A stretch of DNA of 64,000 bases from contig CAZMGP010000016.1 in the NCBI GenBank assembly GCA_964565875.1, forward strand, positions 12,269-76,268, written 5' to 3'. Shown one piece after another: positions 49,574-64,000 of the stretch. A program made the translations under genes and the position numbers. Numbering within the stretch: position 1 is the stretch's first letter; each line of letters begins with the position of its first letter. This DNA comes from an uncultured Enterobacteriaceae bacterium (GTDB taxonomy: Bacteria > Pseudomonadota > Gammaproteobacteria > Burkholderiales > SG8-39). The notes below the pieces were generated by a model. The model saw only the letters and a program-made list of their open reading frames with translations. It did no database searches and was not told the DNA's origin.

Positions 49574-50239
49574 TCAAGTAACGAGCAAGCCCTTCTCGAT
49601 GGCGTAGGCCGTCAGTCCCGCAGTCCGGTGCGTACCGAGCTTCGCCATCAGCTTGGCGCGATGCTTCTCCACCGTCTTCACGCTGAGGAACAGGTATTCG
49701 GCGACCTCCTTGTTCGACCTTCCTTCGGCGACAAGCTTGAGCACTTCGCGCTCGCGGTGCGTGAGCATTTCCAGGGAACTGTAGGGCCGCGATCCGTTCC
49801 CCGACTCCGCGGCATGCTCGACGATCGCCGACACGTCTCGGCTGAAATAGCTCTTGCCCGCGGCCACGCTGCGCACGGCCTTGCGCAGTTCCTCGTGCGT
49901 CGCGTCTTTGAGCAGATAGCCGTCCGCGCCCGCGCGCAAGCTGGCGAAGATGAATTCGTCGAGCTTGTGCAAGGTCACCACCAGGATGCGCGTTTCCGGA
50001 TGGCGCCGCTTGATATCGGTGATCGCCTCCATGCCGTTCATGCCGGGCATGGTCAAGTCCATCAGCACCACGTGCGGTTGCAACTCTCCGGCGACACGAA
50101 TCGCATCGCGTCCATTGTCGCATTCGCCGACAACGGAAAAACCCGCCTCCTGTGACAGGAGCGCGCGCAATCCCGTGCGGATCAAGGTGTGATCTTCGAC
50201 GATGAGGATGCGAAGCCTGCCGTCTGCGTTATCGTCCAT
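49574..50239 (-). CDS. NarL/LuxR-family response regulator
   Basis: 221 aa. REC domain (LIVEDH, VVLMDLTMPGMNG) plus a LuxR-type HTH. Confidence 0.92.
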   Translation of the reverse strand: MDDNADGRLRILIVEDHTLIRTGLRALLSQEAGFSVVGECDNGRDAIRVAGELQPHVVLMDLTMPGMNGMEAITDIKRRHPETRILVVTLHKLDEFIFASLRAGADGYLLKDATHEELRKAVRSVAAGKSYFSRDVSAIVEHAAESGNGSRPYSSLEMLTHREREVLKLVAEGRSNKEVAEYLFLSVKTVEKHRAKLMAKLGTHRTAGLTAYAIEKGLLVT

Positions 50240-50299
50240 AGTGTTTTTCCTTCCCTATACAAACCGGCTCCGCCACCGTAACTGCCCCGGGGCGTCGAA

Positions 50300-51891: not shown

Positions 51892-52542
51892 TTACTTGTT
51901 GTGACAGGTCTTGCACAGAGCACTGCCCGTGCCCGCTACCTTCAGCAGCCCCGGGCCGGGCACCGTGTACTTGTTGTGAACGTCGTGGCAGGTGGAGCAC
52001 TCCACTTGTCCGCTGAATAGAATCACCGAAGCGATGGTGCCGGTCTGCGTCTGCGTTCCCGAGCCGATGGTCACCACCTGCGAGCTCGGGTCGAACAACG
52101 AGCCGTTCGCCACGGCCAAGGCGGAATCGTAGACGAAACCGATCGGATGATCGTCCTTCAGATTGGCACCGATGTTGTTGGCGCTGCTGATGTAAGTTGA
52201 GCCTGACGCGCCGCCGAAACTATCCACCGCGACGGTGCCGTCGTGGCACGACAGGCACAGTTTCGACAATATCCCCGGCTGCCCGATGCTGGCCTTCAGC
52301 GTCGCACTGCCGTAGAGCGCGTAACTTTGGGCGGACAGCGCGTGATTCCATTGCGGCGCGCCCGGGATCGAAGTCATCGAACTGTGCGAGTCGTGGCAAG
52401 TGATGCAGACCTGGCCACCCGACCAGTTGTAATTGGTGAAGTCGTGGGCCGAACCCAGGATCGATCCGGCCTCGGCGGCGTGCGCCGCGAGCACCAACAC
52501 GCCTGCCACAGACAACTTAATCGCGCGCTTGCTCCAGTACAT
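51892..52542 (-). CDS. Tetrahaem c-type cytochrome, paralogue 3
   Basis: Preferred ATG at 52542 (SD GGGAGGA). 216 aa with signal peptide. Four CxxCH motifs (CITCH, CLSCH, CSTCH, CKTCH). Ends 2 residues after the last haem motif. Confidence 0.88.
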   Translation of the reverse strand: MYWSKRAIKLSVAGVLVLAAHAAEAGSILGSAHDFTNYNWSGGQVCITCHDSHSSMTSIPGAPQWNHALSAQSYALYGSATLKASIGQPGILSKLCLSCHDGTVAVDSFGGASGSTYISSANNIGANLKDDHPIGFVYDSALAVANGSLFDPSSQVVTIGSGTQTQTGTIASVILFSGQVECSTCHDVHNKYTVPGPGLLKVAGTGSALCKTCHNK

Positions 52543-52618
52543 GTCGATCCTCCCGTGCCAGTGCGGGCAAGTCCGCCGATCGGCGATGGACACCACTTCC
52601 CGCGCTGCCGCCTTCTCC

Positions 52619-53269
52619 CTAGTAATTGTGACAAGCGAAGCAAATCGCGCTTCGCGCCGTGCTGATTTTCATCAGCCTTGCCGTCGTCGCCGTGTAGGTG
52701 TTGTGCACGTCGTGGCAGGACGAACATTCGATCTGCCCGCCGTAGAGCATCATCGCGGCGATGGTACCGGTTTTCGTCTGCGCGCCGCTGCCGATCGTCA
52801 CCGTGGTGACGCTCGGATCGAACAGCGCTGCGTCGCGAACGGCGAGCGCGGAGTCATAAAGAAAACTCGAAGGATGATGCACGTTCAAGTCGGTCCCGAG
52901 CTTGTTCGCGCTGCTGATATACACGCCGCCGGGTGCCCCCCCGTAGCTGTCGACCGCGACCGTGCCGTCGTGGCAGGAAAGGCACAGCTTCGATGCGCTC
53001 GAGGGCTGGCCCATCACCGCTTTGAGCGTCGTGCTCGAGTACAGCGTGTACACCTGGGTGCTGCCGGCGTGGTTCCATAGCGGCGCGGCGATCACGGCGC
53101 TTTGTCCCTTGTGCGGCACGTGGCAGGCGATGCAGATCTGCCCGCCCGACCACGCCGCCGTGGAAAAATCGTGTGCCGATCCCATGATCGTGCCCGCTGC
53201 GGCAGGATGGGTTGCGAGCGCGAACAATGCCGCCGCCAGACATGCGCTCATCCGCTTCGTCGTATTCAT
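52619..53269 (-). CDS. Tetrahaem c-type cytochrome, paralogue 2
   Basis: Preferred ATG at 53269 (SD GGAGG 9 nt upstream). 216 aa with signal peptide. CIACH, CLSCH, CSSCH, CFACH. Confidence 0.88.
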   Translation of the reverse strand: MNTTKRMSACLAAALFALATHPAAAGTIMGSAHDFSTAAWSGGQICIACHVPHKGQSAVIAAPLWNHAGSTQVYTLYSSTTLKAVMGQPSSASKLCLSCHDGTVAVDSYGGAPGGVYISSANKLGTDLNVHHPSSFLYDSALAVRDAALFDPSVTTVTIGSGAQTKTGTIAAMMLYGGQIECSSCHDVHNTYTATTARLMKISTARSAICFACHNY

Positions 53270-53296
53270 GCCGCTCACCCTCCTGATACGCGCCCG

Positions 53297-55015
53297 CTAA
53301 TAGCTTTTCGGATTATGGCTCTCCCCGTGGCACACCAGATAGCACTGTCCATGGTTGGTCCCGGTGGAGATGAACTGCAGTCTTCCGTTCACCGGCTTGA
53401 CGATCGAGGTGTCGAAATTGATCAGCTTGCTGTTGTTGGTCGGCGTGCCCTGGGTGGAGCTGATGCCGTGCGGATCGTGGCAGGCGTTGCAGGGCGAGCG
53501 CTCCTCCACCACGTGCTTGCGGTGGCCGTCGTCCGTGCCGAAGGGCGAGGCACCATTGCTGGCGGAGGTCAGCACGGTGCGGTTATGGCACTTGTAGCAA
53601 AGCGCGTAATTCGCCGCGCTCTCGGTAGTGCGGTCTGCAGTGACGTATTGGCGCTCGAGCAAGGTCGGATAGATCGAGCCATGCGGCCCCTTCGGTCCGG
53701 TCCCGCCCGCACCGGGCCCAGTATTGTTGTTGTGGCAGTCCCCGCAGCGCATCGTGCTCGCGATCGTCCAGGGCGGCAGCAGGCTGGGCACGTTGGTGTT
53801 CTTCCCCGGGCCGGCAACCGGATGGTAGGAAGGATTGCCGGTGTTGAATTCGAGGCGCGTGTTGTTCTGCGCGATTTGCCGCGTCGTGTGCGACGCCGGC
53901 ATGCCGCTGCTGTCGGCGTGGCAGCGGAAACAGATCTGGTACTCGGCGATGACCGGATTGATGGCGAGGCCGTTGATGTCGATACCGCGTACGCCGGTCA
54001 GCGAACCGGGCACGGTGCCGGCGACGGCGTTCGATGCATGGGGATTGTGGCAGTCCTGGCATTCCACATGGCGCGATTGCACCACGGCAGTTTCGCTCGG
54101 ATCGTGCACGCCGGTGTTGGCCGCCACCGGATGGATCGAAGCCTTGTTGAATTCCGTCTGGATGTTGAACGTCGCCACGTTGGCGTTGTGGCAGGGGTAG
54201 CAATTGGCCTCCTCCGCCGCCGCGTTTTGCAACCACCTTTTGCCGCCGGCCGAATGCGGCCGGTGGCAGTTCTCGCAGCCGTTGGCCGCGACCGTGGCGC
54301 CGCTCGTATGCGCCCAGGGGCTCGCGCCGACGCCGTTCCAGGTCTTCGGCGACAAGCTGTGGTCGCTCTGCGCCCAATAGTTCTTCAGATGGCAGACCTG
54401 GCACAGCGCCGAGGCCTGATTCGGCATCACCAGGAACTTGCCGTTGGGATCCTCGTGCGGATCGTGGCAGGAGGTGCACTGCAGTTGGCCGGTGGAGTCC
54501 AGCCGCACCGGCCCGGTGAGCGTCGCCGGGTCGGCGAGTTCACCGCGCGTAGACGCAAGCGTCAACGTATAGGCGATGGACACCGGGTGGTCGTCGGAGA
54601 GATCGGTGCCGAGCAGCGTATTGCCTGCGCCCAGGGTCGTCGTCCCGCTCGCCATCGCGACCGCGCTGGCGCGGCTCAGCACTTCGCCCAATGCGATGGT
54701 GCCGTCGTGGCAGGACAAGCACATGAGCGACCCGCGCGTCGGCTGGCCGGCGTTGGCTTTGGCGGTCGAACTGGTGTAAGGCGTATAGGTCGAGGCGGGC
54801 GTGCGCCGGTTCCACAGCTGCATGCTCGGCGCCGCATTGTGCGGCGCGTGACAAAAAACGCAAATCTGGGTTTCGCCCGTCGCCTTCACCGTCCCCGGCC
54901 CGGATACGGAGAGATTGTGCTTGGTCGCTGCAATCCCGGCCCAGGCTTGGCTCGCGCTCAGCATCAGGGCCGCGGCGAGCAGGCGTGTCCACCGGCGCCG
55001 ATGTGCGCCGTTCAC
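53297..55015 (-). CDS. Multihaem c-type cytochrome (11 CxxCH + 1 CxxxCH)
   Basis: 572 aa. GTG start overlaps the upstream stop (GTGA). Signal peptide ...ASQAWA. KHNLS...CVFCHAPH N-terminal module. Confidence 0.9.
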   Translation of the reverse strand: MNGAHRRRWTRLLAAALMLSASQAWAGIAATKHNLSVSGPGTVKATGETQICVFCHAPHNAAPSMQLWNRRTPASTYTPYTSSTAKANAGQPTRGSLMCLSCHDGTIALGEVLSRASAVAMASGTTTLGAGNTLLGTDLSDDHPVSIAYTLTLASTRGELADPATLTGPVRLDSTGQLQCTSCHDPHEDPNGKFLVMPNQASALCQVCHLKNYWAQSDHSLSPKTWNGVGASPWAHTSGATVAANGCENCHRPHSAGGKRWLQNAAAEEANCYPCHNANVATFNIQTEFNKASIHPVAANTGVHDPSETAVVQSRHVECQDCHNPHASNAVAGTVPGSLTGVRGIDINGLAINPVIAEYQICFRCHADSSGMPASHTTRQIAQNNTRLEFNTGNPSYHPVAGPGKNTNVPSLLPPWTIASTMRCGDCHNNNTGPGAGGTGPKGPHGSIYPTLLERQYVTADRTTESAANYALCYKCHNRTVLTSASNGASPFGTDDGHRKHVVEERSPCNACHDPHGISSTQGTPTNNSKLINFDTSIVKPVNGRLQFISTGTNHGQCYLVCHGESHNPKSY

Positions 55016-56049
55016 ACCGCGCCCCCGACATAGCGCAGCACCTGCACGCGCTGGTTATAGGAATCGGCGATATAGATCCGGTCGTGCTCGTCGATGAAAA
55101 TGCCGGTCGGCAGCCAAAACTCGCCGCGCTCGCGGCCGAGTGTTCCGACGGAGAGGAGCAGCGCGCCGCGCTCGTCGAATACCTGCAGCGCGTTGAACAG
55201 CGAATCCACCACGTAGACGTGTCCGTAGCGGTCGGTGGCGACGCCCTTCTGCCGGCCGAGGTCGCCGTTGCCGTCGCCGTAGCGTCCGAACTTGCCGACG
55301 AAGTGCCCCTGCGGATCGAACATTTGCACGCGGAAGTTCAACGCGTCGGTGACGTAGAGCCGCCCTTCGGCGTTGCGCCAGGCGAGCGTCGGATAATTGA
55401 ATTCGCCGTCCGCCGTGCCGCGACGGCCGATGCTCGTAACCAGGGCACCGCCGCGGTCGAATACCTGCACGCAGTGCGCCCGCGTGTCGACCACGAACAG
55501 GCGTCCGCTTGCGGGATCGAAGGCGAGGCCCGTAGGCTGCTGCAGCTTCGCCTGCAATGGAAGCGGCGCAGCCGTCTTCGCGCCGGGCCGGATGAGGTAG
55601 ACCGCGGCGAGCGCCGAGTCGCTGACGTAGACTTCGCCTTCCGCGCCGCGCGCAAGGCCCACCGGGGAGAGCAAGGGGCGCTCCTGTGGCCCTTGGATGA
55701 GCGCGTATTCGCCGCGCGCGCGGTCGAAGCGATGTACCCCTTTCACGCCGGGGTCGGCGACGTACACGACGTCGCCTACCGTCACCACCGACATCGGCCG
55801 AATCAGGCGTGTTTCGCTGCGCCCGAACAAGAGATCGCCCAGACGCGCCAGCAGTCCGCGTTCGATGCCCAAATCCTCGGGTCGGGAAAAGGCGCGCACG
55901 TAGGCAAGACGCGGTGGATCGGGCGCCGCGGGCCATGCCAGGGCGGGTTCCTCGTGCCGCTCTTGCGCGCTCGGCGCGCAGCCGGCGAGCGCAAGCGCCA
56001 GGGCGAGCCCAAGCGAGGTGCTGAAGATCGCTTTGGCCGTCACGCTCAA
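55012..56049 (-). CDS. NHL-repeat beta-propeller lipoprotein
   Basis: Preferred TTG at 56049 overlaps the barrel-gene stop (TTGA); GTG at 56043 is also possible. Lipobox LALAGC. Six repeats of the type (V/L)YV(A/V/T)DxxNxxVQ(V/M)FD. Confidence 0.83.
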   Translation of the reverse strand: MSVTAKAIFSTSLGLALALALAGCAPSAQERHEEPALAWPAAPDPPRLAYVRAFSRPEDLGIERGLLARLGDLLFGRSETRLIRPMSVVTVGDVVYVADPGVKGVHRFDRARGEYALIQGPQERPLLSPVGLARGAEGEVYVSDSALAAVYLIRPGAKTAAPLPLQAKLQQPTGLAFDPASGRLFVVDTRAHCVQVFDRGGALVTSIGRRGTADGEFNYPTLAWRNAEGRLYVTDALNFRVQMFDPQGHFVGKFGRYGDGNGDLGRQKGVATDRYGHVYVVDSLFNALQVFDERGALLLSVGTLGRERGEFWLPTGIFIDEHDRIYIADSYNQRVQVLRYVGGAV

Positions 56050-58148
56050 AAGTCCCTGCGCGCGAGCAATTGAACGAGCGCGCGCGAGCGTTTGAAATCG
56101 CCCTGCGTCTCGAGCGTGCGTCCGATATCCAGGCTCACGCTCGCCTTGCGGTAACGCCACTGCGCCTTCAGCGACTCCATCGTCCGGCGGCGCGGAATCG
56201 GGCTGCCGTTGTCGCTTTCGTAGCCCGCGTTCAAAGACAGATCGATACCGAACCAGTAGCGCGACCAGTAGCGCAGGTCATAGCCTTGGAGGTTCACGTT
56301 CTGCAGGGAGTTGGCGTAGTCGACGCGCATGCGCCGCGCCGACAGCCGAATGTTGCCGGTGCCGAAAAACGGCTCCTCCGACTGCACGTAGACGTCGCCC
56401 GACTGGCGCTTGTAGGGGGAAATGGTTTCGCGCCGGTCTTCGTGCTCCAGGTTGCCGCCGATGCTGATTTCGAAGCGCGCTTTCAGCGGCAGATCGGCGC
56501 GCAGGCCGTAGAGATTGCTCTTGATGGCATTCAGCGGAAAAGTCGGCGTGCCCGAAGTCAGGCGCGGCGCCGAATCGAAATAGCGGAAATAGACGCTGGC
56601 GTAGCTGAGCCAGCCCAGACTCAGATTCAGCGTCTGATCGGCCTGGTTGTAGGTGAAGCTGCCGCCGACGTCGTAAGCGTAATCCGCGAGCACGTCCTGC
56701 CCGTCGACGATCGCCCCGCCGATGAGCCGTTGCACCCGGGTCAGCGTGCCGATCACGGTCAGCGTGTAGTCGAAACCTTCGACATAGGTCTGCGTGCGCG
56801 TGGCGTTGGCGAGCACCAGGCTGCCGCTCGCCACATGCTGCTGGGCGAGCGCGACGAACGAAGTTCCGGCGAGCGTGAGGCGTTCGCCGATGATGCGTGC
56901 CTGTGTCGCCGCCGCCTGCTGCTCGCGCTGGTCGTAGCGCAAGCCGTAGCTCGCCAGCGCCGTGGTGCTACCCAGCTTCTCTTGATAGCGGACGGATCCG
57001 TCCGCGCCGCGGTTACGCGCGTCGAGTTGCTTGGTCCGATTATCGTCGGCGTGCACCCCGAGTGCGCCGGTCCACTCGGGGCGCGGCGCATAAGTCAAGC
57101 CGGCGGAAGCCGCGTGCGCCACCGAACTCAGATCGGCCTGATCGCTCGCTGCGTAATTGAGCAAGCCGAAAGTCTGCAATTCCTTGGAATGCCGGCCGCG
57201 CAGGTCGAGCAGGATCCGCTCGTCCTTCCGGTCCGGGATCGAAGTGCCGCCGGCGAGCGCGTAGCTTTGCGTGTTGACGGTGATGAGGTTGGTCAGGTCG
57301 TACTCGCGCGCGCTGCCGAATTGGAAGCGCGAATCGAGGTTGAGACCCTGATTGCTCGAATTCGACGCCTGAATCGGCAGATTCGGGCTGCCGCTCAACG
57401 ACGCCTGCTGCGTCGTCTGGAATTGCAGCTGGGTCGATCCCAGGCCACCGAAGCTGCGGCTCGCCCGCAGATTTACCCGGTCCACCTGATCGTCGACGAT
57501 GCGGTCCGCGCCGCGCCCTTGAAAATGCGAGCGCGTCGCATCGATGAACAGCGGTACCGGCGTCACCGGGGCGAGCAGCGAGAAATCGAAGCCGTAACGC
57601 GTGTTTTCCTGCGTCATCACCTGCCCCGGCGCGACGCTCACGGTCGGGTTGAGGTGATCGAAGAACAGCGATCCCTGATAGGGCTTGTCGTGCAGGAAAC
57701 TCGCGCGGCTGGTGAAATTGTAGAGGGTGCCGCGCGATTGGGTTTCGCCCGCATCCGAGACGAAACTGCCGTGCTGCAGGATCGGCCCCCCGCCGATATC
57801 CAGCGACAGCAGATTGGGATGATAGACATAGCTGTGCGTCATCAAGAACACTTCCTCGCGCATGTCCGACATGGCCTGGCGCGAGCGCGAACCGGCTGCC
57901 GCGCCCACCGCAGGCTGTTCGGTGGCGAAGTCGTCACGCAGGTAGCGCATGGTGACGTAGCCCTCGGTCCCGGTGATACGGAAAGGCGCGATCTGTTGCG
58001 CGACGCAAGGCCAGGCGCCGAGCGCGGCCATAGCGACTGCGACGCGAAATACACCGCTGATCGAGGCATGCTCGCATGTCAGGCTTCCTGCTCGTTGCGC
58101 CTCGGCGGCCGGGGCACAGAAGGACAATTCCGCTATGCGCGCCGTCAA
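56046..58148 (-). CDS. Large outer-membrane beta-barrel (porin-like) protein
   Basis: 700-aa ORF. Alternating amphipathic strand pattern throughout (YGFDFSL, LQFQTTQ, GIDLSLNAGYES) and a C-terminal ...LLARRDF with terminal Phe. The TTG start at 58148 overlaps the upstream stop. The N-terminus/signal peptide is uncertain. Confidence 0.7.
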   Translation of the reverse strand: MTARIAELSFCAPAAEAQRAGSLTCEHASISGVFRVAVAMAALGAWPCVAQQIAPFRITGTEGYVTMRYLRDDFATEQPAVGAAAGSRSRQAMSDMREEVFLMTHSYVYHPNLLSLDIGGGPILQHGSFVSDAGETQSRGTLYNFTSRASFLHDKPYQGSLFFDHLNPTVSVAPGQVMTQENTRYGFDFSLLAPVTPVPLFIDATRSHFQGRGADRIVDDQVDRVNLRASRSFGGLGSTQLQFQTTQQASLSGSPNLPIQASNSSNQGLNLDSRFQFGSAREYDLTNLITVNTQSYALAGGTSIPDRKDERILLDLRGRHSKELQTFGLLNYAASDQADLSSVAHAASAGLTYAPRPEWTGALGVHADDNRTKQLDARNRGADGSVRYQEKLGSTTALASYGLRYDQREQQAAATQARIIGERLTLAGTSFVALAQQHVASGSLVLANATRTQTYVEGFDYTLTVIGTLTRVQRLIGGAIVDGQDVLADYAYDVGGSFTYNQADQTLNLSLGWLSYASVYFRYFDSAPRLTSGTPTFPLNAIKSNLYGLRADLPLKARFEISIGGNLEHEDRRETISPYKRQSGDVYVQSEEPFFGTGNIRLSARRMRVDYANSLQNVNLQGYDLRYWSRYWFGIDLSLNAGYESDNGSPIPRRRTMESLKAQWRYRKASVSLDIGRTLETQGDFKRSRALVQLLARRDF

Positions 58149-59287
58149 CGGTTGAGCTTGGCCGTGGTCTTCGCCGACGCGCCGTCTTCAGCCGCGTAGT
58201 CCGCGCCGCGCATCTTGCCGAAACCGAAGACATCGACCTTGTTTTGGCCGAATTGGCTCACTACGAATATCAGGTATTGCAGATCGAATCCCGGTGCGGC
58301 GTAACGACGGAACGCCTCTACGTTGTCGTAGTCGATGGCGACCGCGGCGGGAAGATTCAATCCTTCGCGATTGTCGCCCGGCTGGCCGAAGAACAGCAGC
58401 AGGTGGCCGTCGTTGTCGAACACCTGCACGTTCTCGAAGGCCGAGTCGCCGACGTACAGGCGCCCCTCGCGGTCGATGGCGATGCCCTTCGGCCGGGAAA
58501 AATTGCCGCGTTCGTTGCCGATCTCGCCGTAGGCGCGCAGCGGTGCGCCGTCGGCGGTGAAGCGCTGCACGCGGAAATTGCTGGTTTCCACCACGTAGAC
58601 GTCGCCGTTCGGGCCGATGGCGATGTTGGTCGGATGAAACAGCTCTCCCAGCTTCGATCCCGCCTGGCCGAACGTGAACAGCAGCTTGCCCGAGCGCTTG
58701 TCCAATACCTGCACCTGATGGTGCTGGATGTCGACCACGTAGAGTCGCTCTCCCGCGATGGCGGTGTCCACCGGCTTGAACTGCTTATCGCCGCCGAATG
58801 CATTGACGAATCGGTCGTCGCGATCGAACACCAGCACTTGGTCACGGCCGGTGTCGGTGACGTACTTGGTGCCGTCGGCGTCGACAGTGATGTTGATCGG
58901 CCGCTTCATGCGGCCGCTCGGGGCGCCATTGACGAGGCTGAACGACTGCCGCGCGAGATCGAACACCGCCAACCCCGGCGCGCGGCTGTCGACGACGTAG
59001 AGCTTACCGTCGAACATCGCCACGCCGTAGGGCTGCTTGAGCTGCTGCACCTTGGCGTCGTCGCCGAGAACGAACTGCGCGAATCCGCTCGTCGCTGCGC
59101 CCAGGTCACGCTCGCCGCTGATGGTCTTGAGATGCTGGATGCGCGGAGCTTCCGGCGCCGGCGGATAGAACGTCGGTCCCTGGACACGCGGCGCCTCCAC
59201 CGGCGCCGTCGCGCATGCCGCGAGCAGCGCGACGAGGCAGACGCTCGCCGCACTCCGGCGCAAATTCATCGCGCGCATCCGGACCAT
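58145..59287 (-). CDS. NHL-repeat beta-propeller lipoprotein (paralogue)
   Basis: 380 aa with lipobox LLAAC and repeated LYVVDxxxxxVQVxD-type NHL blades. Confidence 0.85.
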   Translation of the reverse strand: MVRMRAMNLRRSAASVCLVALLAACATAPVEAPRVQGPTFYPPAPEAPRIQHLKTISGERDLGAATSGFAQFVLGDDAKVQQLKQPYGVAMFDGKLYVVDSRAPGLAVFDLARQSFSLVNGAPSGRMKRPINITVDADGTKYVTDTGRDQVLVFDRDDRFVNAFGGDKQFKPVDTAIAGERLYVVDIQHHQVQVLDKRSGKLLFTFGQAGSKLGELFHPTNIAIGPNGDVYVVETSNFRVQRFTADGAPLRAYGEIGNERGNFSRPKGIAIDREGRLYVGDSAFENVQVFDNDGHLLLFFGQPGDNREGLNLPAAVAIDYDNVEAFRRYAAPGFDLQYLIFVVSQFGQNKVDVFGFGKMRGADYAAEDGASAKTTAKLNR

Positions 59288-59298
59288 TGCTCTCGCTG

Positions 59299-59961
59299 CT
59301 ACTTGTTGTGGCAGGCCACGCAGATCTTGCTGCCCGCCGTGTCCATCTTCACCATGCCGGTGCCGTTGGCGCCGACGGCGAAAGTGTTATGCACGTCGTG
59401 GCAGGAGGAGCATTCCATCTGGCCGTTGAACAGCATCACCGAGGCCACGGTACCGGTCTTGGTCTGCGCTCCGGCGCCGATGGTCACGGTTTTCGTCGCC
59501 GGGTCGAACAGCGAGCCGTTGGCGTTGGCGAGCGTGGTGTCGTAGAGGAAACCGATCGGATGATCGTCGTTCAGGGCGGCGCCGCCGAGATTGTTCTTTG
59601 CGCTGATGGTCGTGGTGCCCACCGTGCCGCCGAAGCTGTCGACCGCCACTGTACCGTCGTGGCAGGACAGGCACAGCTTGGAGTTGCCCTCCGGCTGCCC
59701 CAGCGCTGCTTTCAATGTCGGGCTGCTGTAGAGCGTATACACCTGCGTCGTCACCGCGTGGTTCCACAGGGGCGCCGCGGACACCGAGGTATTGCTGTTG
59801 TGCGGCGTATGGCAGGTAACGCAGACCTTCTGTCCCGGGTTCCAGTTCGCGGTGGAAAAGTCGTGCGCCGATCCCGCCAAAGTGCCGGCGAAGCCGAACT
59901 GTGCCGCTAGCAGCAGTCCCGTCCCTGCGATCCATTTAACTGCGACTGTCAGTGATTTCAT
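59299..59961 (-). CDS. Tetrahaem c-type cytochrome, paralogue 1 (first gene of operon)
   Basis: 220 aa, SD GAGGAG, signal peptide. CVTCH, CLSCH, CSSCH, CVACH. Confidence 0.88.
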   Translation of the reverse strand: MKSLTVAVKWIAGTGLLLAAQFGFAGTLAGSAHDFSTANWNPGQKVCVTCHTPHNSNTSVSAAPLWNHAVTTQVYTLYSSPTLKAALGQPEGNSKLCLSCHDGTVAVDSFGGTVGTTTISAKNNLGGAALNDDHPIGFLYDTTLANANGSLFDPATKTVTIGAGAQTKTGTVASVMLFNGQMECSSCHDVHNTFAVGANGTGMVKMDTAGSKICVACHNK

Positions 59962-60116
59962 TTTCTTGCTCCTCTAGCTGGTCTGGCCACGGTGTCCAAT
60001 GCATTCCCGCTACGCGTCGTCTCACGCCAACGATGCTATCGAAGGCGCTCGCACTGTACGAAATGCGACTTTGAGTCGAAAGTAGGGCATTTGCCCATTC
60101 TTGCCGACCCGCAATC

Positions 60117-60133
60117 GTCGCGATAATCGCGAC
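60117..60133. promoter_or_regulatory. 17-bp perfect palindrome in the divergent intergenic region (candidate operator)
   Basis: GTCGCGAT-A-ATCGCGAC. A second 12-bp palindrome GGGCATTTGCCC lies at 60085-60096. Confidence 0.3.
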
Positions 60134-60243
60134 GCGCGGCGCCCGCGCTTTGCGCCCGTGCCGCGCGACGCATCGAATGCGCGGCGACGCCGCAGACTGG
60201 GCGAAGCAAACCGTGAAACGCTGCAAATAGCGAGCACCCGACC

Positions 60244-61137
60244 ATGAACTACGAAGCCACGCTGACTCAAGCGGCGGCCGCGCGCCGCCCGGACACCCCT
60301 GCACCTGCTGTCGACACGCCTGCGCCTGCGCAGCAGCCGAAGCGCGTACCGCCGTCCGCCGCGATCGCCGCCATGTCGACGATGCTCCTCGTCTGGGCGT
60401 GGAACGTGCACCACGCCGGCCTGTACCAATCGGGAAAGGGTCTCGGCTACGTTCTCGGCCTAGTCGGCGGCTCGCTGATGCTGGTGCTGCTCCTCTACCC
60501 GTTGCGCAAGCACCTGCGCGTCATGCACGAATGGGGGCCGCTCAAATATTGGTTTCGTTTCCACATGATCGCGGGCGTGCTGGGGCCGCTGCTGGTGTTG
60601 TTCCATTCGACCTTCCGCGTCGGTTCGCTGAACGCGGCCGTAGCGCTCGCCTGCATGCTGCTCGTTGTCGCGAGCGGGCTCGCCGGCCGCTTTCTCTACC
60701 GCAAGATTCACCACGGCCTGTACGGCAGCCGCGCGAGCCTGCAGGAATTGCAGCAAACCCTGGCGCGCGAACGCGAAGCGCTGTCGCATTTGCTCGCGCG
60801 CCTGCCGCAAGTCGAGCGCGAGATCGACCGCTTCGCCGCCCTGGTCGCCCACGAGCCGCAAGGCTGGTACCGGCGCTGGGCGCATTTTCTATCGCTGGGT
60901 GCGAAACGCGCACTCGCGGTGCACCGTGCGCGGCGCGCCGTAGCGGCGCACGGTGTCCGATCAGACCTCGCCGCCCTGCTCGTCACCATCGACGCCACGC
61001 TGAAAGCGGTACAGCGCACGGCGCAGTTCTCCACCTATGAGCGCCTGTTTTCCCTCTGGCATGTGGTCCACATTCCGTTCTTGTGCATGCTGGTCATCAC
61101 TGCCCTCATCCATGTCGTGGCTGTTCACGTTTACTAG
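60244..61137 (+). CDS. Integral membrane protein with two His-x13-His helices (candidate di-haem b electron conduit)
   Basis: 297 aa with about 5 predicted TM helices. FRFHMIAGVLGPLLVLFH and WHVVHIPFLCMLVITALIHVV carry His pairs with 13 intervening residues. Confidence 0.7.
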   Translation: MNYEATLTQAAAARRPDTPAPAVDTPAPAQQPKRVPPSAAIAAMSTMLLVWAWNVHHAGLYQSGKGLGYVLGLVGGSLMLVLLLYPLRKHLRVMHEWGPLKYWFRFHMIAGVLGPLLVLFHSTFRVGSLNAAVALACMLLVVASGLAGRFLYRKIHHGLYGSRASLQELQQTLAREREALSHLLARLPQVEREIDRFAALVAHEPQGWYRRWAHFLSLGAKRALAVHRARRAVAAHGVRSDLAALLVTIDATLKAVQRTAQFSTYERLFSLWHVVHIPFLCMLVITALIHVVAVHVY

Positions 61138-62923
61138 GTTCATCGCCGCCGCCGCTCATTTCGTAGTCGCCATCTTCTTCGCCGGCGCTGCGCCTGCCGC
61201 GGCGCAGATGCTCGAGTCGGCGATCATGCCGGGCGCGGTCATTCAAGGCCACATCAAGCAGGAATCCGATTGCAAGAACTGCCACGTGCGCTTCGACCGG
61301 GCGGCGCAGCCGCGACTGTGCCTGGACTGCCACAAGGAGGTGGCGCGCGACGTGCAGGCGAAGACCGGCTACCACGGGCGCCTGAAGGAGCGCGAGTGTC
61401 GCGGCTGCCATACCGAGCACAAGGGGCGCAATGCCCGCATCGTCGTGCTCGACGAGCATGCCTTCGATCACGCCCAGACCGATTTCCTGTTGCAAGGCAA
61501 GCACGCCAAGCTCGCCTGCTCGAGTTGCCACCGCCCGCGCGTCAAACATCGGCAGGCGCCCACTTCCTGCGTCGGCTGTCACCGCAAGGACGACAAGCAC
61601 AAGGAGACACTAGGCGCCAAATGCGAAAGCTGCCACAGCGAAAAGAGCTGGAAGGAGGCGCGCTTCGATCACGCCAAGACGCAGTTCCCGCTCGTCGAGC
61701 GTCACGCCAAAGTGAAGTGCGCAGAATGCCACGCCGACGCACAGCACTTTGCCAAAACCGCGCGCGATTGCATCGCCTGCCACCGCAAGGACGACAAGCA
61801 CAAGGCGACGCTGGGCGCGAAATGCGAGAGCTGCCACAGCGAAAAGTCGTGGAAGGAAACGCGTTTCGAGCATGCGAAAACGCGCTTCCCGCTGCTCCTT
61901 TCTCACGCCAAGGTGAAGTGCAACAAGTGTCACGAAGACATGCAGCATTTGGCGAAGACCGCGAGCGACTGCGCCTCTTGTCACCGCAAGGACGACGCGC
62001 ACAAGGGAGCGCTGGGCGCGAAATGCGAGGGTTGCCACAACGAAAGGACCTGGAAAGAGGCGATTCGCTTCGATCACGCACGCGACGCGCGCTTTCCGCT
62101 GCGCGACAAGCATCAGGCCGCCAAATGCCAAAGCTGTCACAAAGATGTCCGTTTTCGCGACAAGCTGCCGACTGCCTGCTTCGGCTGCCACGAGCGCGAC
62201 GATCGCGAGAAAGGGCACAAGGGCCGCTACGGCGAGAAGTGCGAGTCTTGCCATGCCGAGAAGGCGTTCAAATCCGTTACCTTCGAACACGCCCGCGACG
62301 CGAAATTCGAACTGAAAGGCAAGCATGCGCAGGCCAAGTGCGACACCTGCCACAGCGGCGTTCTCTACCGCGACAAGCTCAAGCAGCGCTGTTTCGCCTG
62401 CCACGAAAAGGACGACAAGCACAAAGCGCAGCTAGGGCCGGAATGCGATCGCTGCCATAGCGAGCGCAACTGGAAGGAAACCTCGTTCGATCACGACCGT
62501 TCCGCGTTCCGGCTGCTCGACAAACACAAGGGCTTGGAGTGCAAGAAATGCCATGCGAGCCCCGCGTTCAAGGACGCAAAGTCCGAATGCGCCTCCTGCC
62601 ACGCCAAGGACGACTTTCACAAGGAGCGACTCGGCCCCGGCTGCGGCCAATGCCATCGGCCGCAGTCGTGGAAGACCTGGGAGTTCGACCACAATCAGCG
62701 CTCGCGCTTCAAGCTCGCCGATGCGCACGTGCGCGTGAAGTGCCTCGCCTGCCACGTGAAGCCGGTGAAGGAGAAGCTTACGCTTGCCGTCGAATGCTAC
62801 AGTTGCCACCGTGAGGACGACATCCATTTCGACACCAACGGCCAAAAATGCGAGCGCTGCCACGTGCCACAGAACTGGCGCAAAACCGTCGGCGACGCAC
62901 TGCTGCCGAAGAAGGATCGCTGA
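61112..62923 (+). CDS. 24-haem periplasmic cytochrome c (eight tandem trihaem c7-type modules)
   Basis: Preferred ATG at 61112 with signal peptide MSWLFTFTRFIAAAAHFVVAIFFAGAAPAAAQ. I counted 24 CxxCH motifs in a repeating FDH...C..CH...C..CH..DD.HK..LG..C..CH pattern. Confidence 0.9.
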   Translation: MSWLFTFTRFIAAAAHFVVAIFFAGAAPAAAQMLESAIMPGAVIQGHIKQESDCKNCHVRFDRAAQPRLCLDCHKEVARDVQAKTGYHGRLKERECRGCHTEHKGRNARIVVLDEHAFDHAQTDFLLQGKHAKLACSSCHRPRVKHRQAPTSCVGCHRKDDKHKETLGAKCESCHSEKSWKEARFDHAKTQFPLVERHAKVKCAECHADAQHFAKTARDCIACHRKDDKHKATLGAKCESCHSEKSWKETRFEHAKTRFPLLLSHAKVKCNKCHEDMQHLAKTASDCASCHRKDDAHKGALGAKCEGCHNERTWKEAIRFDHARDARFPLRDKHQAAKCQSCHKDVRFRDKLPTACFGCHERDDREKGHKGRYGEKCESCHAEKAFKSVTFEHARDAKFELKGKHAQAKCDTCHSGVLYRDKLKQRCFACHEKDDKHKAQLGPECDRCHSERNWKETSFDHDRSAFRLLDKHKGLECKKCHASPAFKDAKSECASCHAKDDFHKERLGPGCGQCHRPQSWKTWEFDHNQRSRFKLADAHVRVKCLACHVKPVKEKLTLAVECYSCHREDDIHFDTNGQKCERCHVPQNWRKTVGDALLPKKDR

Positions 62924-62944
62924 GGAGCCGGGGCGCGCACGTCG

Positions 62945-64000
62945 ATGAGCAACTTGCTCCTCCCCTTGAGCTATCTCGTGCCGCTCGTGCTGCTGCTCGG
63001 CACCTACGTCTATCGCTGGCGCCGGCGCGAGGCGCGCGCCGCGGACACGCTCGCGCGCTCGCTGAAGACGGGGTTGACCGAGCCGCCCAGCCTGCATCCC
63101 GTGATCGACCTGAATTTGTGCATGGGATCTGGCGCGTGCACGCGCGCCTGTCCGGAAGGGACCTTGGGCATCGTCAAGGGCAAGGCGCACATGATCAACC
63201 CCACCGTCTGCATCGGCCACGGCGCCTGCGCCGCTGCATGTCCGGTCGAGGCGATCAAGCTGGTGTTCGGATCGGCGCGCCGCGGCGTCGACATTCCCTA
63301 CGTCAAGCCGACGTTCGAGACCAACGTGCCTGGGATATTCATCGCCGGCGAACTCGGCGGCATGGGACTGATCCGCAATGCCGCCGAACAGGGACGGCAG
63401 GCGATGGAGTCGATTGCGCGCAACCGCGCGCAGCCCGATCAGTTGGACGTCGTGATCATCGGCGCGGGTCCGGCCGGACTGTCGGCGACGCTCGCGGCGA
63501 TGGAGCACAAGTTGCGCTTCGTCACGCTGGAGCAGGAGGACTCTCTCGGCGGCTGCGTCTACCACTATCCGCGCAACAAGATCGTCGCCACCCATCCGGT
63601 GACGCTGCCGCTGGTAGGCAAAGTCAAGTTGGGTGAGATCTCGAAGGAATCCTTACTCGAATTCTGGCAGGGCATCGTCAAGCGCACGTCGATGTCGATC
63701 CGTTTCGGCGAATGCATGGACAGCATCACCGCCGTGGACCGCGGGTTCATCGTGAAGACCGGGCGCGCTGAATACCGCTGTCGCTCGGTGCTGCTCGCCA
63801 TCGGCCGCCGCGGATCTCCGCGCAAGCTCGGCGTGCCCGGCGAGGAACTGTCCAAAGTCGTCTATCGCCTCATCGACCCGGAGCAATATCGGGGCAAGCA
63901 TGTGCTGGTGGTGGGCGGCGGCAACAGCGCGGTCGAAGCCGCAGTCGCGCTCGCGGAAGAACCGGGATCGAGCGTGACCATTTCCTACCGCGGCGAGAGC
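62945..64000 (+). CDS. Membrane-anchored Fe-S / FAD-NAD(P)-binding oxidoreductase, N-terminal 352 codons (runs off the right edge)
   Basis: Absent from the ORF track because it has no stop in the window. Manual translation: N-terminal TM helix (LLLPLSYLVPLVLLLGTYVY), two ferredoxin-like motifs CMGSGACTRACP and CIGHGACAAACP, then VVIIGAGPAGLSA (FAD) and VLVVGGGNSAVEAA (NAD(P)) Rossmann motifs. Confidence 0.8.
   Translation, partial: MSNLLLPLSYLVPLVLLLGTYVYRWRRREARAADTLARSLKTGLTEPPSLHPVIDLNLCMGSGACTRACPEGTLGIVKGKAHMINPTVCIGHGACAAACPVEAIKLVFGSARRGVDIPYVKPTFETNVPGIFIAGELGGMGLIRNAAEQGRQAMESIARNRAQPDQLDVVIIGAGPAGLSATLAAMEHKLRFVTLEQEDSLGGCVYHYPRNKIVATHPVTLPLVGKVKLGEISKESLLEFWQGIVKRTSMSIRFGECMDSITAVDRGFIVKTGRAEYRCRSVLLAIGRRGSPRKLGVPGEELSKVVYRLIDPEQYRGKHVLVVGGGNSAVEAAVALAEEPGSSVTISYRGES

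What the first reader, a model, noticed from the sequence alone, without database searches (positions are those of the whole stretch)
60244..64000. Divergent three-gene operon supplying the inner-membrane and periplasmic half of a conduit: His-rich membrane protein, 24-haem c7 polymer, membrane-anchored Fe-S flavoprotein
Seen in sequence: 282 bp from the start of the outer-membrane cytochrome operon, and transcribed the other way, lie three genes. The first is a 5-TM protein with bis-His helices. The second is a Sec-exported 24-haem cytochrome whose start overlaps the first gene by 26 nt. The third is an N-terminally anchored protein with two ferredoxin-like motifs plus FAD and NAD(P) Rossmann motifs.

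Established knowledge: Geobacter Cbc-type complexes combine b-type membrane subunits, Fe-S proteins and multihaem c-type cytochromes. Polymers of trihaem c7 domains, such as the dodecahaem GSU1996, are thought of as periplasmic wires or capacitors.

Inference: with the neighbouring operon this gives a continuous path from NAD(P)H/FAD/Fe-S to haem b, to 24 periplasmic haems, to the barrel cytochromes, to the surface. It would be usable in either direction, for metal reduction or for Fe(II)/electrode oxidation with reverse electron flow to NAD(P)+.
Basis: partly seen in the sequence, partly recalled or inferred. Interest (0 to 1): 0.75.

Follow-up and report, generated by a model that had tools for sequence, protein, structure and literature searches.

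The report
Flavoprotein-fed inner half of cytochrome conduit
Three co-transcribed genes encode a likely two-haem membrane protein, a 24-haem periplasmic "wire" and a membrane-anchored NADPH/iron-sulfur flavoprotein; the first two are a known but untested candidate electron conduit (PCC3), and the flavoprotein suggests it is fed from cytoplasmic NAD(P)H rather than from quinones.

Summary
Gene 1 (60244-61137) has every motif of the ~300-aa inner-membrane protein (IMP) that He et al. 2017 defined for "PCC3" porin-cytochrome clusters. Gene 2 (61112-62923) is eight c7-like trihaem modules with 24 CxxCH, all apparently bis-His. Gene 3 (62945 onwards, cut at residue 351 of 432) is an N-terminally anchored, cytoplasm-facing flavoprotein.

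New here:
- In 23 of 23 informative relatives, gene 3 follows the c7 gene directly. These relatives also keep the neighbouring tetrahaem/NHL/barrel/NHL/12-haem operon.
- Orthologues of gene 3 sit near canonical PCC3 clusters. Conversely, 40 of 52 flavoprotein-centred metagenome loci carry the IMP.
- The flavoprotein is a circularly permuted YpdA/TrxR-like enzyme without a redox cysteine. Its two ferredoxin motifs have three Cys each, with Ser/Ala or an invariant His in place of the fourth.

Best reading, inferred and not shown: a split, NOX-like reductase passing electrons from NAD(P)H to FAD, Fe-S, haem b, then the 24-haem wire. It is not Cbc-type. Reverse flow to NAD(P)+ is energetically implausible. 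A role in cytochrome c maturation is a live rival, because orthologues often follow ccmI/cycH-like genes.

Verdict: new variant of a known kind; moderately high interest.

The parts
59962..60243 (.). 282-bp divergent intergenic region between the outer-membrane operon and the three-gene operon
   Evidence: The scan found no sigma-70-like promoter or terminator. The region contains a 17-nt palindrome at 60117-60133 that is not conserved in 24 relatives.
60244..61137 (+). Gene 1: PCC3-type inner-membrane protein (IMP), 297 aa, 5 TM helices, putative dihaem b
   Evidence: No Pfam or NCBIfam family. More than 2000 homologues, all annotated hypothetical, and 2503 representative clusters. All IMP family motifs of He et al. 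2017 are present.
60550..60606 (+). TM3 motif W103-x3-H107-x13-H121
   Evidence: W103, H107 and H121 are invariant.
60673..60687 (+). TM4 motif SGLAG (SGxxG)
   Evidence: S144, G145 and G148 are invariant.
60688..61047 (+). Cytoplasmic helical insert of the IMP (about residues 149-268)
   Evidence: AF2 pLDDT is about 90 over residues 170-260. The segment has 20 K+R, consistent with the positive-inside rule. It is present in all 83 IMPs examined.
61057..61113 (+). TM5 motif W272-x3-H276-x13-H290
   Evidence: the motif residues are invariant.
61112..62923 (+). Gene 2: exported 24-haem cytochrome made of eight c7-like trihaem modules
   Evidence: 24 CxxCH. Pfam Cytochrome_C7 at 1.5e-30 in 5 stretches. 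The eight modules align, each with 3 conserved free His and no conserved Met. Signal-peptide-like N-terminus.
62945..64000 (+). Gene 3 (truncated, residues 1-351 of 432): membrane-anchored Fe-S flavoprotein
   Evidence: Best structural matches are YpdA/Bdr, TrxR and TrxR-type FNR.
62945..63046 (+). N-terminal TM anchor followed by RWRRRE, giving an N-out, C-in orientation with the bulk in the cytoplasm
   Evidence: AF2 models a helix at residues 2-42 with pLDDT about 90. The arginines follow the hydrophobic stretch, so this is not a Tat signal.
63119..63244 (+). Two three-Cys ferredoxin motifs: CMGSGACTRACP and CIGHGACAAACP
   Evidence: Across 38 homologues, position 62 is Ser or Ala and position 92 is an invariant His. 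Inferred: one [3Fe-4S] cluster and one His-ligated [4Fe-4S] cluster.
63266..63439 (+). Displaced C-terminal FAD-binding element (residues 108-165), evidence of circular permutation
   Evidence: One search gives weak alignments to YpdA residues 270-320; moving this segment to the C-terminus extends the YpdA profile match from 1-264 to 1-310 of 316, and the TrxR match from 2-204 to 2-297 of 300.
63461..63478 (+). FAD Rossmann motif GAGPAG; the YpdA redox Cys position holds Ala
63914..63931 (+). NAD(P)H Rossmann motif GGGNSA, followed by SYRG at the window end
   Evidence: S347, R349 and R355 are invariant.
59299..59961 (-). Tetrahaem cytochrome, first gene of the divergent operon
   Evidence: 4 CxxCH and a Paired_CXXCH_1 match. 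Conserved in the 27 close relatives, called group A in the full report.
58145..59287 (-). NHL beta-propeller lipoprotein
   Evidence: Pfam NHL at 1.2e-19. Lipobox LAAC. Conserved in group A.
56046..58148 (-). 700-aa putative outer-membrane barrel
   Evidence: No Pfam hit. Ends in Phe and has a signal-like N-terminal region. Conserved at 46-66% identity in group A. The barrel fold was not tested.
55012..56160 (-). Second NHL beta-propeller lipoprotein
   Evidence: Pfam NHL at 9.5e-25. Conserved in group A.
53297..55015 (-). 12-haem cytochrome (11 CxxCH plus 1 CxxxCH), candidate surface cytochrome
   Evidence: Conserved at 61-77% identity in group A.
51892..53278 (-). Two further tetrahaem paralogues (52619-53278 and 51892-52596)
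   Evidence: Separate copies occur only here and in L004.

Best explanation
The three genes encode the cytoplasm-to-periplasm half of a trans-envelope electron conduit that works like a split NADPH oxidase or ferric reductase.

Proposed path:
1. The flavoprotein sits at the cytoplasmic face, held by an N-out/C-in anchor, and oxidises NAD(P)H at a TrxR/YpdA-type FAD site.
2. Electrons pass through its two membrane-proximal Fe-S clusters, probably a [3Fe-4S] and a His-ligated [4Fe-4S].
3. They reach the cytoplasm-side haem b of the 5-TM protein (H107/H276), cross the membrane to the periplasm-side haem b (H121/H290), and load the 24-haem chain of eight c7-like modules.
4. That chain hands electrons to the tetrahaem/NHL/barrel/12-haem module encoded divergently.

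Net flow is outward and does not need the quinone pool.

Shown: gene content, motifs, topology signals, the permuted fold, and conserved reciprocal gene linkage.

Inferred: haem b binding, the Fe-S cluster types, the NAD(P)H donor, physical contact between the flavoprotein and the IMP, the direction of flow, and the physiological acceptor (Fe(III), Mn, humics, an electrode or a partner cell).
For: - Linkage from the IMP side: the flavoprotein is the gene directly after the c7 gene in 23 of 23 close relatives with enough sequence. Full-length orthologues at 56-61% identity lie within 10 kb of 15 of 55 canonical PCC3 loci, and in 9 of the 15 that have full flanks.
- Linkage from the flavoprotein side: 40 of 52 flavoprotein-centred metagenome loci with at least 2 kb upstream carry the IMP, and in 32 it is directly adjacent and divergent.
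- The flavoprotein is more conserved (67-83% identity) than the IMP (51-67%).
- Topology: the IMP loops obey the positive-inside rule, with the N-terminus, loop 2 and the large insert inside and the C-terminus outside. This places one His pair near each membrane face.
- The flavoprotein anchor is followed by RWRRRE, then directly by the Fe-S domain, then FAD and NADPH.
- Together, the IMP (5 TM, C-terminus out) and the anchor (N-terminus out, C-terminus in) recreate the 6-TM plus cytosolic reductase layout of NOX/FRE, with the His pairs on TM3 and TM5. The motif parallel was noted in PMC5566968.
- There is no CxxC and no YpdA Cys, so the enzyme is not a disulfide reductase. Its nearest folds include TrxR-type ferredoxin-NADP reductases.
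- The conserved SYRG..F.R after the second Rossmann motif resembles the NADPH-type motif of YpdA.
- The 26-nt gene1/gene2 overlap recurs in relatives.
- Published expression data: PCC3 was down-regulated on Fe(II) in Sideroxydans ES-1 (PMC8788666). This is compatible with a function other than Fe(II) oxidation.
Against: - No biochemical data exist for any of the three proteins.
- The IMP has no detectable sequence or fold similarity to the FRD family. Pfam gave nothing, and Foldseek against the PDB gave nothing with E<1. The TM part of the model has pLDDT of only 60-75.
- Many canonical PCC3 loci lack the flavoprotein within 10 kb, so the IMP can probably work with another partner, perhaps quinone as He et al. 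proposed.
- Outward NAD(P)H-driven flow dissipates rather than builds proton-motive force, which is odd for a respiratory pathway.
- Flavoprotein orthologues also sit directly after ccmI/cycH-like genes in 12 loci, once at the end of a ccmE-F-G-cycH operon with no IMP within about 8-10 kb on either side.
- In Sideroxydans CL21 one PCC3 IMP gene rose when cells were oxidising iron (bioRxiv 2025.02.27.639646).
Confidence: 0.42

Rival explanations
1. Cytochrome-maturation or maintenance role. The flavoprotein, with or without the IMP, delivers cytoplasmic reducing power across the membrane to reduce haem iron or keep newly made multihaem proteins reduced during assembly. It would not carry respiratory current.
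For: - A ccmI/cycH-like gene (Ig_CycH 4e-32 to 4e-33; TPR_CcmH_CycH) lies directly upstream on the same strand in 12 flavoprotein loci. L120 has ccmE-ccmF-ccmG-cycH-flavoprotein with no IMP within 8-10 kb.
- Four more loci have ccmG/ccmE converging on the flavoprotein gene.
- Some of the 27 close relatives carry a cycH-like gene after the 12-haem gene (L005, L009, L025, L026).
Against: - The 64-kb window contains no ccm or cycH gene.
- Linkage to the IMP and c7 pair is much more frequent than linkage to ccm genes: 40 of 52 flavoprotein-centred loci, and 23 of 23 close relatives.
- CycH-like TPR genes or domains are themselves parts of PCC3 clusters. Small cycH-like genes precede the IMP in L133, L143 and L159, and some IMPs carry TPR fusions. 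Adjacency to cycH may therefore only reflect membership of the same module.
- Translational coupling of the IMP with a 24-haem wire suggests a stoichiometric electron-transfer complex.
Confidence: 0.2
2. Quinone-linked PCC3, the published model. The IMP is a quinol oxidase or quinone reductase that connects the quinone pool to the periplasmic wire, serving Fe(II) or mineral oxidation or metal reduction. The flavoprotein is an accessory NAD(P)H:quinone-type input, or is functionally separate.
For: - He et al. 2017 proposed a quinone-active dihaem b protein.
- Many canonical PCC3 loci have no flavoprotein gene within 10 kb.
- All characterised Gram-negative inner-membrane entry points to extracellular electron transfer (CymA, ImcH, CbcL, CbcBA) are quinol dehydrogenases (background knowledge).
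- PCC3 occurs in iron oxidisers.
Against: - No quinone-site motif or homology to any quinone-reactive cytochrome b was found.
- The tight reciprocal linkage, high conservation and membrane anchoring of the flavoprotein are hard to explain if it is unrelated.
- The conserved cytoplasmic-face residues of the IMP (R149, Y152, H156, G158-G161) and its large cytoplasmic insert fit a docking surface as well as a quinone site.
Confidence: 0.2
3. Inward electron uptake with reverse flow to NAD(P)+. Electrons from Fe(II), a cathode or a mineral would travel through the wire, the haems b, Fe-S and FAD to reduce NAD(P)+ for CO2 fixation.
For: - All cofactors in the chain are reversible in principle.
- Relatives come from iron-rich or humic stratified lakes (record titles), and PCC3 occurs in iron oxidisers.
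Against: - The NAD(P)+/NAD(P)H couple at about -320 mV lies well below Fe(II) couples and typical bis-His c7 haems.
- Inward electron movement also works against the membrane potential.
- No proton- or ion-coupling subunit and no bifurcation partner is encoded in the operon.
- A [3Fe-4S] cluster, if present, would be a high-potential step in the wrong direction.
Confidence: 0.06

Closest known systems
PCC3 porin-cytochrome c cluster (He, Barco, Emerson, Roden 2017, PMC5566968; Gallionellaceae pangenome PMC9900912)
   Same: Gene 1 has every defining motif of the PCC3/PCC4 inner-membrane protein. Gene 2 matches the "periplasmic MHC" with 21, 24 or 27 haems. In both cases the function is only predicted.
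   Different: The canonical cluster has four genes: IMP, periplasmic MHC, an extracellular MHC with 10-85 haems, and a large porin. Here the outer-membrane half is replaced by tetrahaem, NHL, 700-aa barrel, NHL and 12-haem proteins with no detectable similarity to the outer-membrane genes of the 55 more distant PCC3-type relatives. A flavoprotein is also fixed as third gene. None of the PCC3 papers read mentions a flavoprotein.
Uet (undecahaem electron transfer) cluster of Ca. Tenderia electrophaga, and the Occ cluster of Ca. Dechloromonas occultata
   Same: Same kinds of parts as the neighbouring operon: a tetrahaem cytochrome, two NHL propellers, a large barrel, an 11-12-haem cytochrome and c7-type trihaem units.
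   Different: Homology was not tested because no Uet or Occ sequences were available. Uet has three separate trihaem proteins, a cupredoxin and a PPIase, and no inner-membrane component. Here the trihaem units are fused into one 24-haem protein and are joined to an IMP and a flavoprotein.
NOX/FRE ferric-reductase-domain enzymes, and the two-component MsrQ plus Fre system
   Same: Same logic: cytoplasmic NAD(P)H, then flavin, then two stacked haems b held by His pairs on TM3 and TM5, then an acceptor outside. The IMP plus the flavoprotein anchor give the same 6-TM topology with a cytosolic reductase.
   Different: No sequence or fold match to the FRD family was found. The reductase is TrxR/YpdA-type with two Fe-S clusters rather than an FNR-type dehydrogenase domain. 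The system is split over two genes, and the acceptor is a multihaem cytochrome rather than O2, Fe(III) chelate or MsrP.
Geobacter c7 polymers (GSU1996, GSU0592, GSU2210)
   Same: Tandem trihaem modules of about 67-70 aa from the c3/c7 superfamily, forming a proposed periplasmic wire or capacitor.
   Different: Here there are eight modules. Each has three conserved free His and no conserved Met, which suggests all-bis-His ligation, whereas GSU1996 domains have one His-Met haem (from memory). The NCBIfam c7 trihaem model was not matched. The only PDB sequence match is a cytochrome c3 at 2.9e-5.
YpdA/Bdr bacillithiol-disulfide reductase and TrxR-type ferredoxin-NADP reductases
   Same: Best sequence and structure matches for residues 166-432, with a two-Rossmann FAD/NADPH fold.
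   Different: The score of 145 bits is far below the family cut-off of 340. The YpdA Cys is replaced by Ala and there is no CxxC. The C-terminal FAD element is moved ahead of the GxGxxG motif. The protein is also fused to a three-Cys dicluster ferredoxin domain and a TM anchor.
Geobacter Cbc-type complexes
   Same: Combination of a membrane haem-b-like subunit, Fe-S and multihaem c proteins.
   Different: Gene 1 matches none of the cytochrome b families used in Cbc complexes. The Cbc complexes that have been characterised (CbcL, CbcBA) are quinol-linked and have no NAD(P)H flavoprotein (background knowledge).

Membership tests
PCC3/PCC4 inner-membrane protein family (He et al. 2017) | About 300 aa with five TM helices | tested here: met
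   297 aa. The AF2 model and hydropathy give five TM helices.
PCC3/PCC4 inner-membrane protein family (He et al. 2017) | Two W-x3-H-x13-H motifs, on TM3 and TM5 | tested here: met
   WFRFH..H at residues 103-121 and WHVVH..H at 272-290. Both motifs are present in all 83 IMPs examined.
PCC3/PCC4 inner-membrane protein family (He et al. 2017) | SGxxG on TM4 | tested here: met
   SGLAG at residues 144-148, invariant S, G and G.
PCC3/PCC4 inner-membrane protein family (He et al. 2017) | Binds two haems b | not testable with these tools
   Motif-based inference only. No fold match was found.
Canonical PCC3 gene cluster | IMP encoded next to a periplasmic MHC of about 21-27 haems | tested here: met
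   The 24-haem gene overlaps the end of the IMP gene. All 82 related loci keep the pair.
Canonical PCC3 gene cluster | The PCC3-type large porin and a low-complexity extracellular MHC lie in the same cluster | tested here: not met
   OMP700 and MHC572 have no tblastn match (E<=1e-8) in the 55 canonical loci. The porins there carry TPR/YfiO-like N-terminal regions.
Geobacter Cbc-type complex | Membrane subunit from a recognised cytochrome b family (NarI, HybB or cytochrome b/b6 type) | tested here: not met
   Pfam, NCBIfam and PDB profile searches gave no such hit.
c7-type trihaem domain polymers | Tandem modules of about 70 aa, each with three CxxCH, matching Cytochrome_C7 | tested here: met
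   Eight modules; PF14522 at E=1.5e-30.
c7-type trihaem domain polymers | Match to NCBIfam TIGR04257 (nanowire_3heme) | tested here: not met
   Not among the hits at E<=0.01. Only a partial HmcA match was found.
YpdA/Bdr | Whole-protein score above the family cut-off and a linear domain order | tested here: not met
   145 bits against a cut-off of 339.9. The profile is matched only over positions 1-264 unless the protein is re-permuted.
YpdA/Bdr | Redox Cys within the first GxGxxG (GGGPCG) | tested here: not met
   GAGPAG; Ala at that position in all 38 homologues.
Thioredoxin reductase / AhpF | CxxC redox-active disulfide in the NADPH domain | tested here: not met
   There is no CxxC anywhere outside the Fer4 domain.
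TrxR-type ferredoxin-NADP reductase | Two-Rossmann FAD/NADPH fold without a redox disulfide, working with a ferredoxin | tested here: inconclusive
   The fold matches 6gar, 3ab1, 3lzw and 5ygq and a ferredoxin domain is fused. Activity cannot be tested here.
NOX/FRE (FRD plus FNR-like dehydrogenase domain) | Pfam Ferric_reduct TM domain with FAD_binding_8/NAD_binding_6 domains in one chain | tested here: not met
   None of these domains was found. Only the His-pair pattern and the topology are shared.
Uet cluster | Orthology to UetA-J | not tested
The resemblance rests on gene content only.

The most novel reading that the evidence does not exclude
This permuted, membrane-anchored NADPH/Fe-S flavoprotein family is a dedicated cytoplasmic-side reductase for transmembrane haem-b relays. 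With the PCC3 inner-membrane protein it would form the first quinone-independent, NOX-like entry point to a Gram-negative extracellular electron conduit. In loci where it ends ccm operons, it may be the long-sought reductant of the CcmF transmembrane haem.
Probability: 0.3. Interest if true: 0.8.

Novelty: new variant of a known kind. Interest (0 to 1): 0.58.

Why it matters
PCC3 clusters are widespread in Gallionellaceae, Leptothrix, Nitrospira, Comamonadaceae and Rhodocyclales. They are routinely scored as candidate iron oxidases, yet nothing is known about how they connect to metabolism.

A conserved cytoplasmic NAD(P)H flavoprotein partner would change the default model. The conduit would be fed directly from NAD(P)H and run outward, bypassing the quinone pool. 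This gives simple experiments: NADPH-dependent reduction of the 24-haem protein, and EPR of the three-Cys clusters.

It would also matter for reading metagenomes, where PCC3 presence is taken as iron-oxidation potential. If the ccm link is real, it bears on the open question of what reduces the CcmF haem.

Tried and rejected
- The look-up of encoding contigs for window genes 1 and 2 and for P0001 returned nothing on record. Context came instead from homologue P0041 and from collection scans.
- The diverse IMP alignment A3 was too divergent for the search for related loci. The closer alignment A1 worked.
- Foldseek of the IMP model against the PDB gave no match with E<1.
- A PDB profile search with the IMP alignment hit only coiled coils matching the cytoplasmic insert.
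- Pfam scans of 37 and then 10 family members gave only noise. DUF4405 appeared at E>=0.02 in 7 members, on the last helix only. FRD membership therefore could not be established.
- N-terminal extensions of fused IMP homologues are TPR or SPOR domains, not redox domains, so they give no fusion-based ("Rosetta-stone") clue to a partner.
- No promoter or terminator consensus was found in the divergent spacer. The 17-nt palindrome there is not conserved.
- The adjacent histidine kinase and response regulator are shared only with L004, so they are not part of the conserved unit.
- The length of the IMP cytoplasmic insert does not differ between loci with and without the flavoprotein.
- Thiol-reductase and Cbc-type readings were rejected on the missing Cys motifs and the missing cytochrome b homology.

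Full report
**1. What is there**

The region holds three plus-strand genes. They start 282 bp from a divergently transcribed cytochrome operon.

Gene 1 (60244-61137, 297 aa) matches no Pfam or NCBIfam model. It nevertheless has more than 2000 homologues, all annotated as hypothetical, and 2503 clusters at 50% identity in an exhaustive search.

It splits into eight alignable modules of about 67-70 aa. Each module has three CxxCH, three further conserved His and no conserved Met, so all 24 haems are probably bis-His ligated.

Gene 3 starts at 62945 and runs off the window at residue 351. The database holds the identical full-length protein of 432 aa from the same 77.5-kb contig (P0121). In a relative the next gene is convergent, so the operon has three genes.

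Two caveats apply: the start of gene 2 could also be the in-frame ATG at 61037, and each "ferredoxin motif" has only three cysteines.

**2. Genes 1 and 2 are already in the literature as PCC3 parts**

He et al. [quoted passage not shown] In Gallionellaceae the periplasmic cytochrome has 21, 24 or 27 haems (PMC9900912).

The IMP was defined by five TM helices, an SGxxG motif on TM4, and W-x3-H-x13-H motifs on TM3 and TM5. The authors proposed that it is a dihaem b protein resembling ferric-reductase domains and that it talks to quinone.

Gene 1 has all of these motifs, and they are invariant across homologues. The positive-inside rule puts the N-terminus, loop 2 and a roughly 120-residue helical insert in the cytoplasm, and the C-terminus in the periplasm. 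One His pair therefore lies near each membrane face. AF2 models the insert confidently (pLDDT about 90) and the TM bundle less so.

I could not confirm the FRD relationship. Foldseek, PDB profile searches and Pfam scans gave nothing. The comparison with Geobacter Cbc complexes fails on homology.

**3. The flavoprotein**

Residues 4-24 form a hydrophobic anchor followed by RWRRRE. This gives an N-out, C-in orientation with the bulk in the cytoplasm. The arginines follow the hydrophobic stretch, so this is not a Tat signal.

A dicluster ferredoxin domain follows directly (residues 51-107). Its motifs are C-x2-[S/A]-x2-C-x3-CP and C-x2-H-x2-C-x3-CP, and the His is invariant in 38 homologues. By analogy with 7Fe ferredoxins and hydrogenase distal clusters (background knowledge), this suggests one [3Fe-4S] cluster and one His-ligated [4Fe-4S] cluster.

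The remainder is a two-Rossmann FAD/NADPH enzyme. It is closest to YpdA/Bdr, TrxR and TrxR-type ferredoxin-NADP reductases in both sequence and fold. It has no CxxC, and Ala replaces the YpdA redox Cys, so it is not a disulfide reductase.

The protein is circularly permuted. The native sequence matches the YpdA profile only over positions 1-264 of 316 and stops at its own C-terminus. Moving residues 108-165 to the C-terminus extends the match to 1-310 of 316, and the TrxR match to 2-297 of 300, with a higher score.

**4. Conservation and linkage**

A scan of one genome per species with the IMP alignment returned 80 loci. I compared them with the window proteins by tblastn.

Group A comprises 27 loci, including two metagenome contigs obtained earlier with homologue P0041 (L001, L002).
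- IMP identity is 51-67%.
- By record title the hosts are Rhodocyclaceae, Sulfuritalea, Sterolibacterium and Thiobacillus MAGs, one MAG labelled Rokuibacteriota (L012) and one labelled Chitinophaga pinensis (L044).
- The whole layout is kept: IMP, a c7 polymer (24 and 27 haems in the two loci counted, L001-type and L012) and the flavoprotein on one strand; tetrahaem, NHL, barrel, NHL and 12-haem genes on the other.
- The flavoprotein follows the c7 gene in 23 of 23 loci with enough sequence.

Group B comprises 55 loci.
- IMP identity is 34-46%.
- Hosts are Nitrospira, Comamonadaceae, Thermodesulfobacteriota and others.
- These are canonical PCC3 clusters. The IMP and the 21-24-haem protein are accompanied by extracellular cytochromes of 10-72 haems and TPR-bearing putative porins of about 770 aa.
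- There is no homologue of the window's outer-membrane genes.
- Full-length flavoprotein orthologues (56-61% identity) still lie within 10 kb in 15 of the 55 loci, and in 9 of the 15 that have complete flanks.

The reverse test used a metagenome scan centred on the flavoprotein. The IMP was found in 40 of 52 loci with at least 2 kb upstream. In 32 of the 49 loci where the IMP was found at all, it was the directly adjacent, divergent gene.

The linkage is therefore reciprocal and spans phyla. The flavoprotein is also more conserved than the IMP. None of the PCC3, Uet or Occ papers I could read mentions it.

**5. Mechanism**

The simplest reading of the anatomy is a split NOX-like transmembrane reductase. 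Electrons would pass from NAD(P)H to FAD, then to Fe-S, the inner haem b, the outer haem b, the 24 c-haems and finally the outer-membrane module.

The IMP (5 TM, C-terminus out) and the flavoprotein anchor (N-terminus out, C-terminus in) together reproduce the NOX/FRE topology of six TM helices followed by a cytosolic reductase, with the haem His pairs on TM3 and TM5. The chemistry differs: the reductase is TrxR-type with Fe-S clusters rather than FNR-type.

Outward flow is strongly downhill and is assisted by the membrane potential. Inward flow to NAD(P)+ is uphill and opposed by the membrane potential, and no coupling device is encoded.

Published expression data are mixed. PCC3 was down-regulated on Fe(II) in Sideroxydans ES-1, its proteins were weakly or constitutively detected, and one IMP gene rose in iron-oxidising CL21 cells.

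**6. Rivals**

(a) Cytochrome maturation. Flavoprotein orthologues follow a ccmI/cycH-like gene directly in 12 loci. In L120 the gene closes a ccmE-ccmF-ccmG-cycH operon. The reductant of the CcmF transmembrane haem is acknowledged to be unknown (PMC10663686). Against this, the window has no ccm genes, and cycH-like TPR genes or domains are themselves common parts of PCC3 clusters.

(b) The published quinone-linked model. This is favoured by the many PCC3 loci without a nearby flavoprotein gene.

(c) Inward flow to NAD(P)+, rated unlikely for the reasons above.

All four models share the untested premise that the IMP binds two haems b.

**7. Verdict**

The feature is real and well conserved. 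Half of it, the IMP and the periplasmic wire, is a known but uncharacterised candidate system.

Three things appear to be new:
- the fixed, reciprocal association with an unusual permuted Fe-S flavoprotein;
- the fusion of the PCC3 inner half with a Uet-like NHL/barrel outer half;
- the mechanistic implication of an NAD(P)H-fed, quinone-independent conduit.

I classify it as a new variant of a known kind. Interest is moderately high, because it turns an open question (how PCC3 connects to metabolism, and in which direction it runs) into simple experiments.

Noticed in passing
window 60117-60133: Perfect 17-nt palindrome GTCGCGATAATCGCGAC in the divergent spacer, a possible regulator site. It was not found in the equivalent region of 24 related loci.
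   Followed up: partly
window 51892-53278 and 59299-59961 (minus strand): Three paralogous tetrahaem cytochromes of about 220-234 aa. The two distal copies exist as separate genes only here and in L004, which suggests a recent local expansion.
   Followed up: partly
window 49574-51511 (minus strand): A histidine kinase (403 aa) and a response regulator (221 aa) lie directly after the outer-membrane operon. Among related loci the kinase is found only in L004. Weaker matches to both genes in L035 lie about 7 kb from the IMP. The pair is therefore not part of the conserved module.
   Followed up: partly
L120 3701-9708; also L058 2367-4668, L124, L130, L142, L146, L149, L161: The flavoprotein orthologue lies directly after a ccmI/cycH-like gene. 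In L120 it closes a ccmE-ccmF-ccmG-cycH operon with no IMP nearby.
   Followed up: partly
L112 4409-5806, L117 4454-5866, L137 8593-9888: A DUF3443 protein sits upstream of the flavoprotein on the same strand in three metagenome loci that lack a detectable IMP. A cycH-like gene precedes it in L117 and L137.
   Followed up: no
L077 7313-9415 and L080 7239-9335: In the Thermodesulfobacteriota locus L077, a 700-aa protein with many ankyrin repeats and Sel1 repeats lies between the flavoprotein and the IMP. L080 has an unscanned 698-aa ORF in the same position.
   Followed up: no
L067 12785-20876; L079 12733-17526: Giant predicted extracellular cytochromes lie in canonical PCC3 loci: 72 CxxCH in 2697 aa (running to the end of the locus) and 58 CxxCH in 1597 aa.
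   Followed up: no
proteins P0370, P0359, P0264, P0354 (IMP homologues): Some IMP homologues carry N-terminal extensions of 150-400 aa containing TPR or SPOR domains. In L133, L143 and L159 small cycH-like TPR genes precede the IMP.
   Followed up: partly
window 56046-58148 (minus strand): The 700-aa putative barrel gives a sub-threshold NCBIfam match to a phage tail tube protein model (E=6e-8, 32 bits against a cut-off of 60) over residues 418-501. This is probably a beta-rich chance similarity.
   Followed up: no
L001 7842-8667 (also L002): Some close relatives (the MAG represented by L001, L002 and L010) have two extra small genes, a DUF2846 protein and a 120-aa ORF, between the tetrahaem and the first NHL gene. 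These are absent from the window.
   Followed up: no
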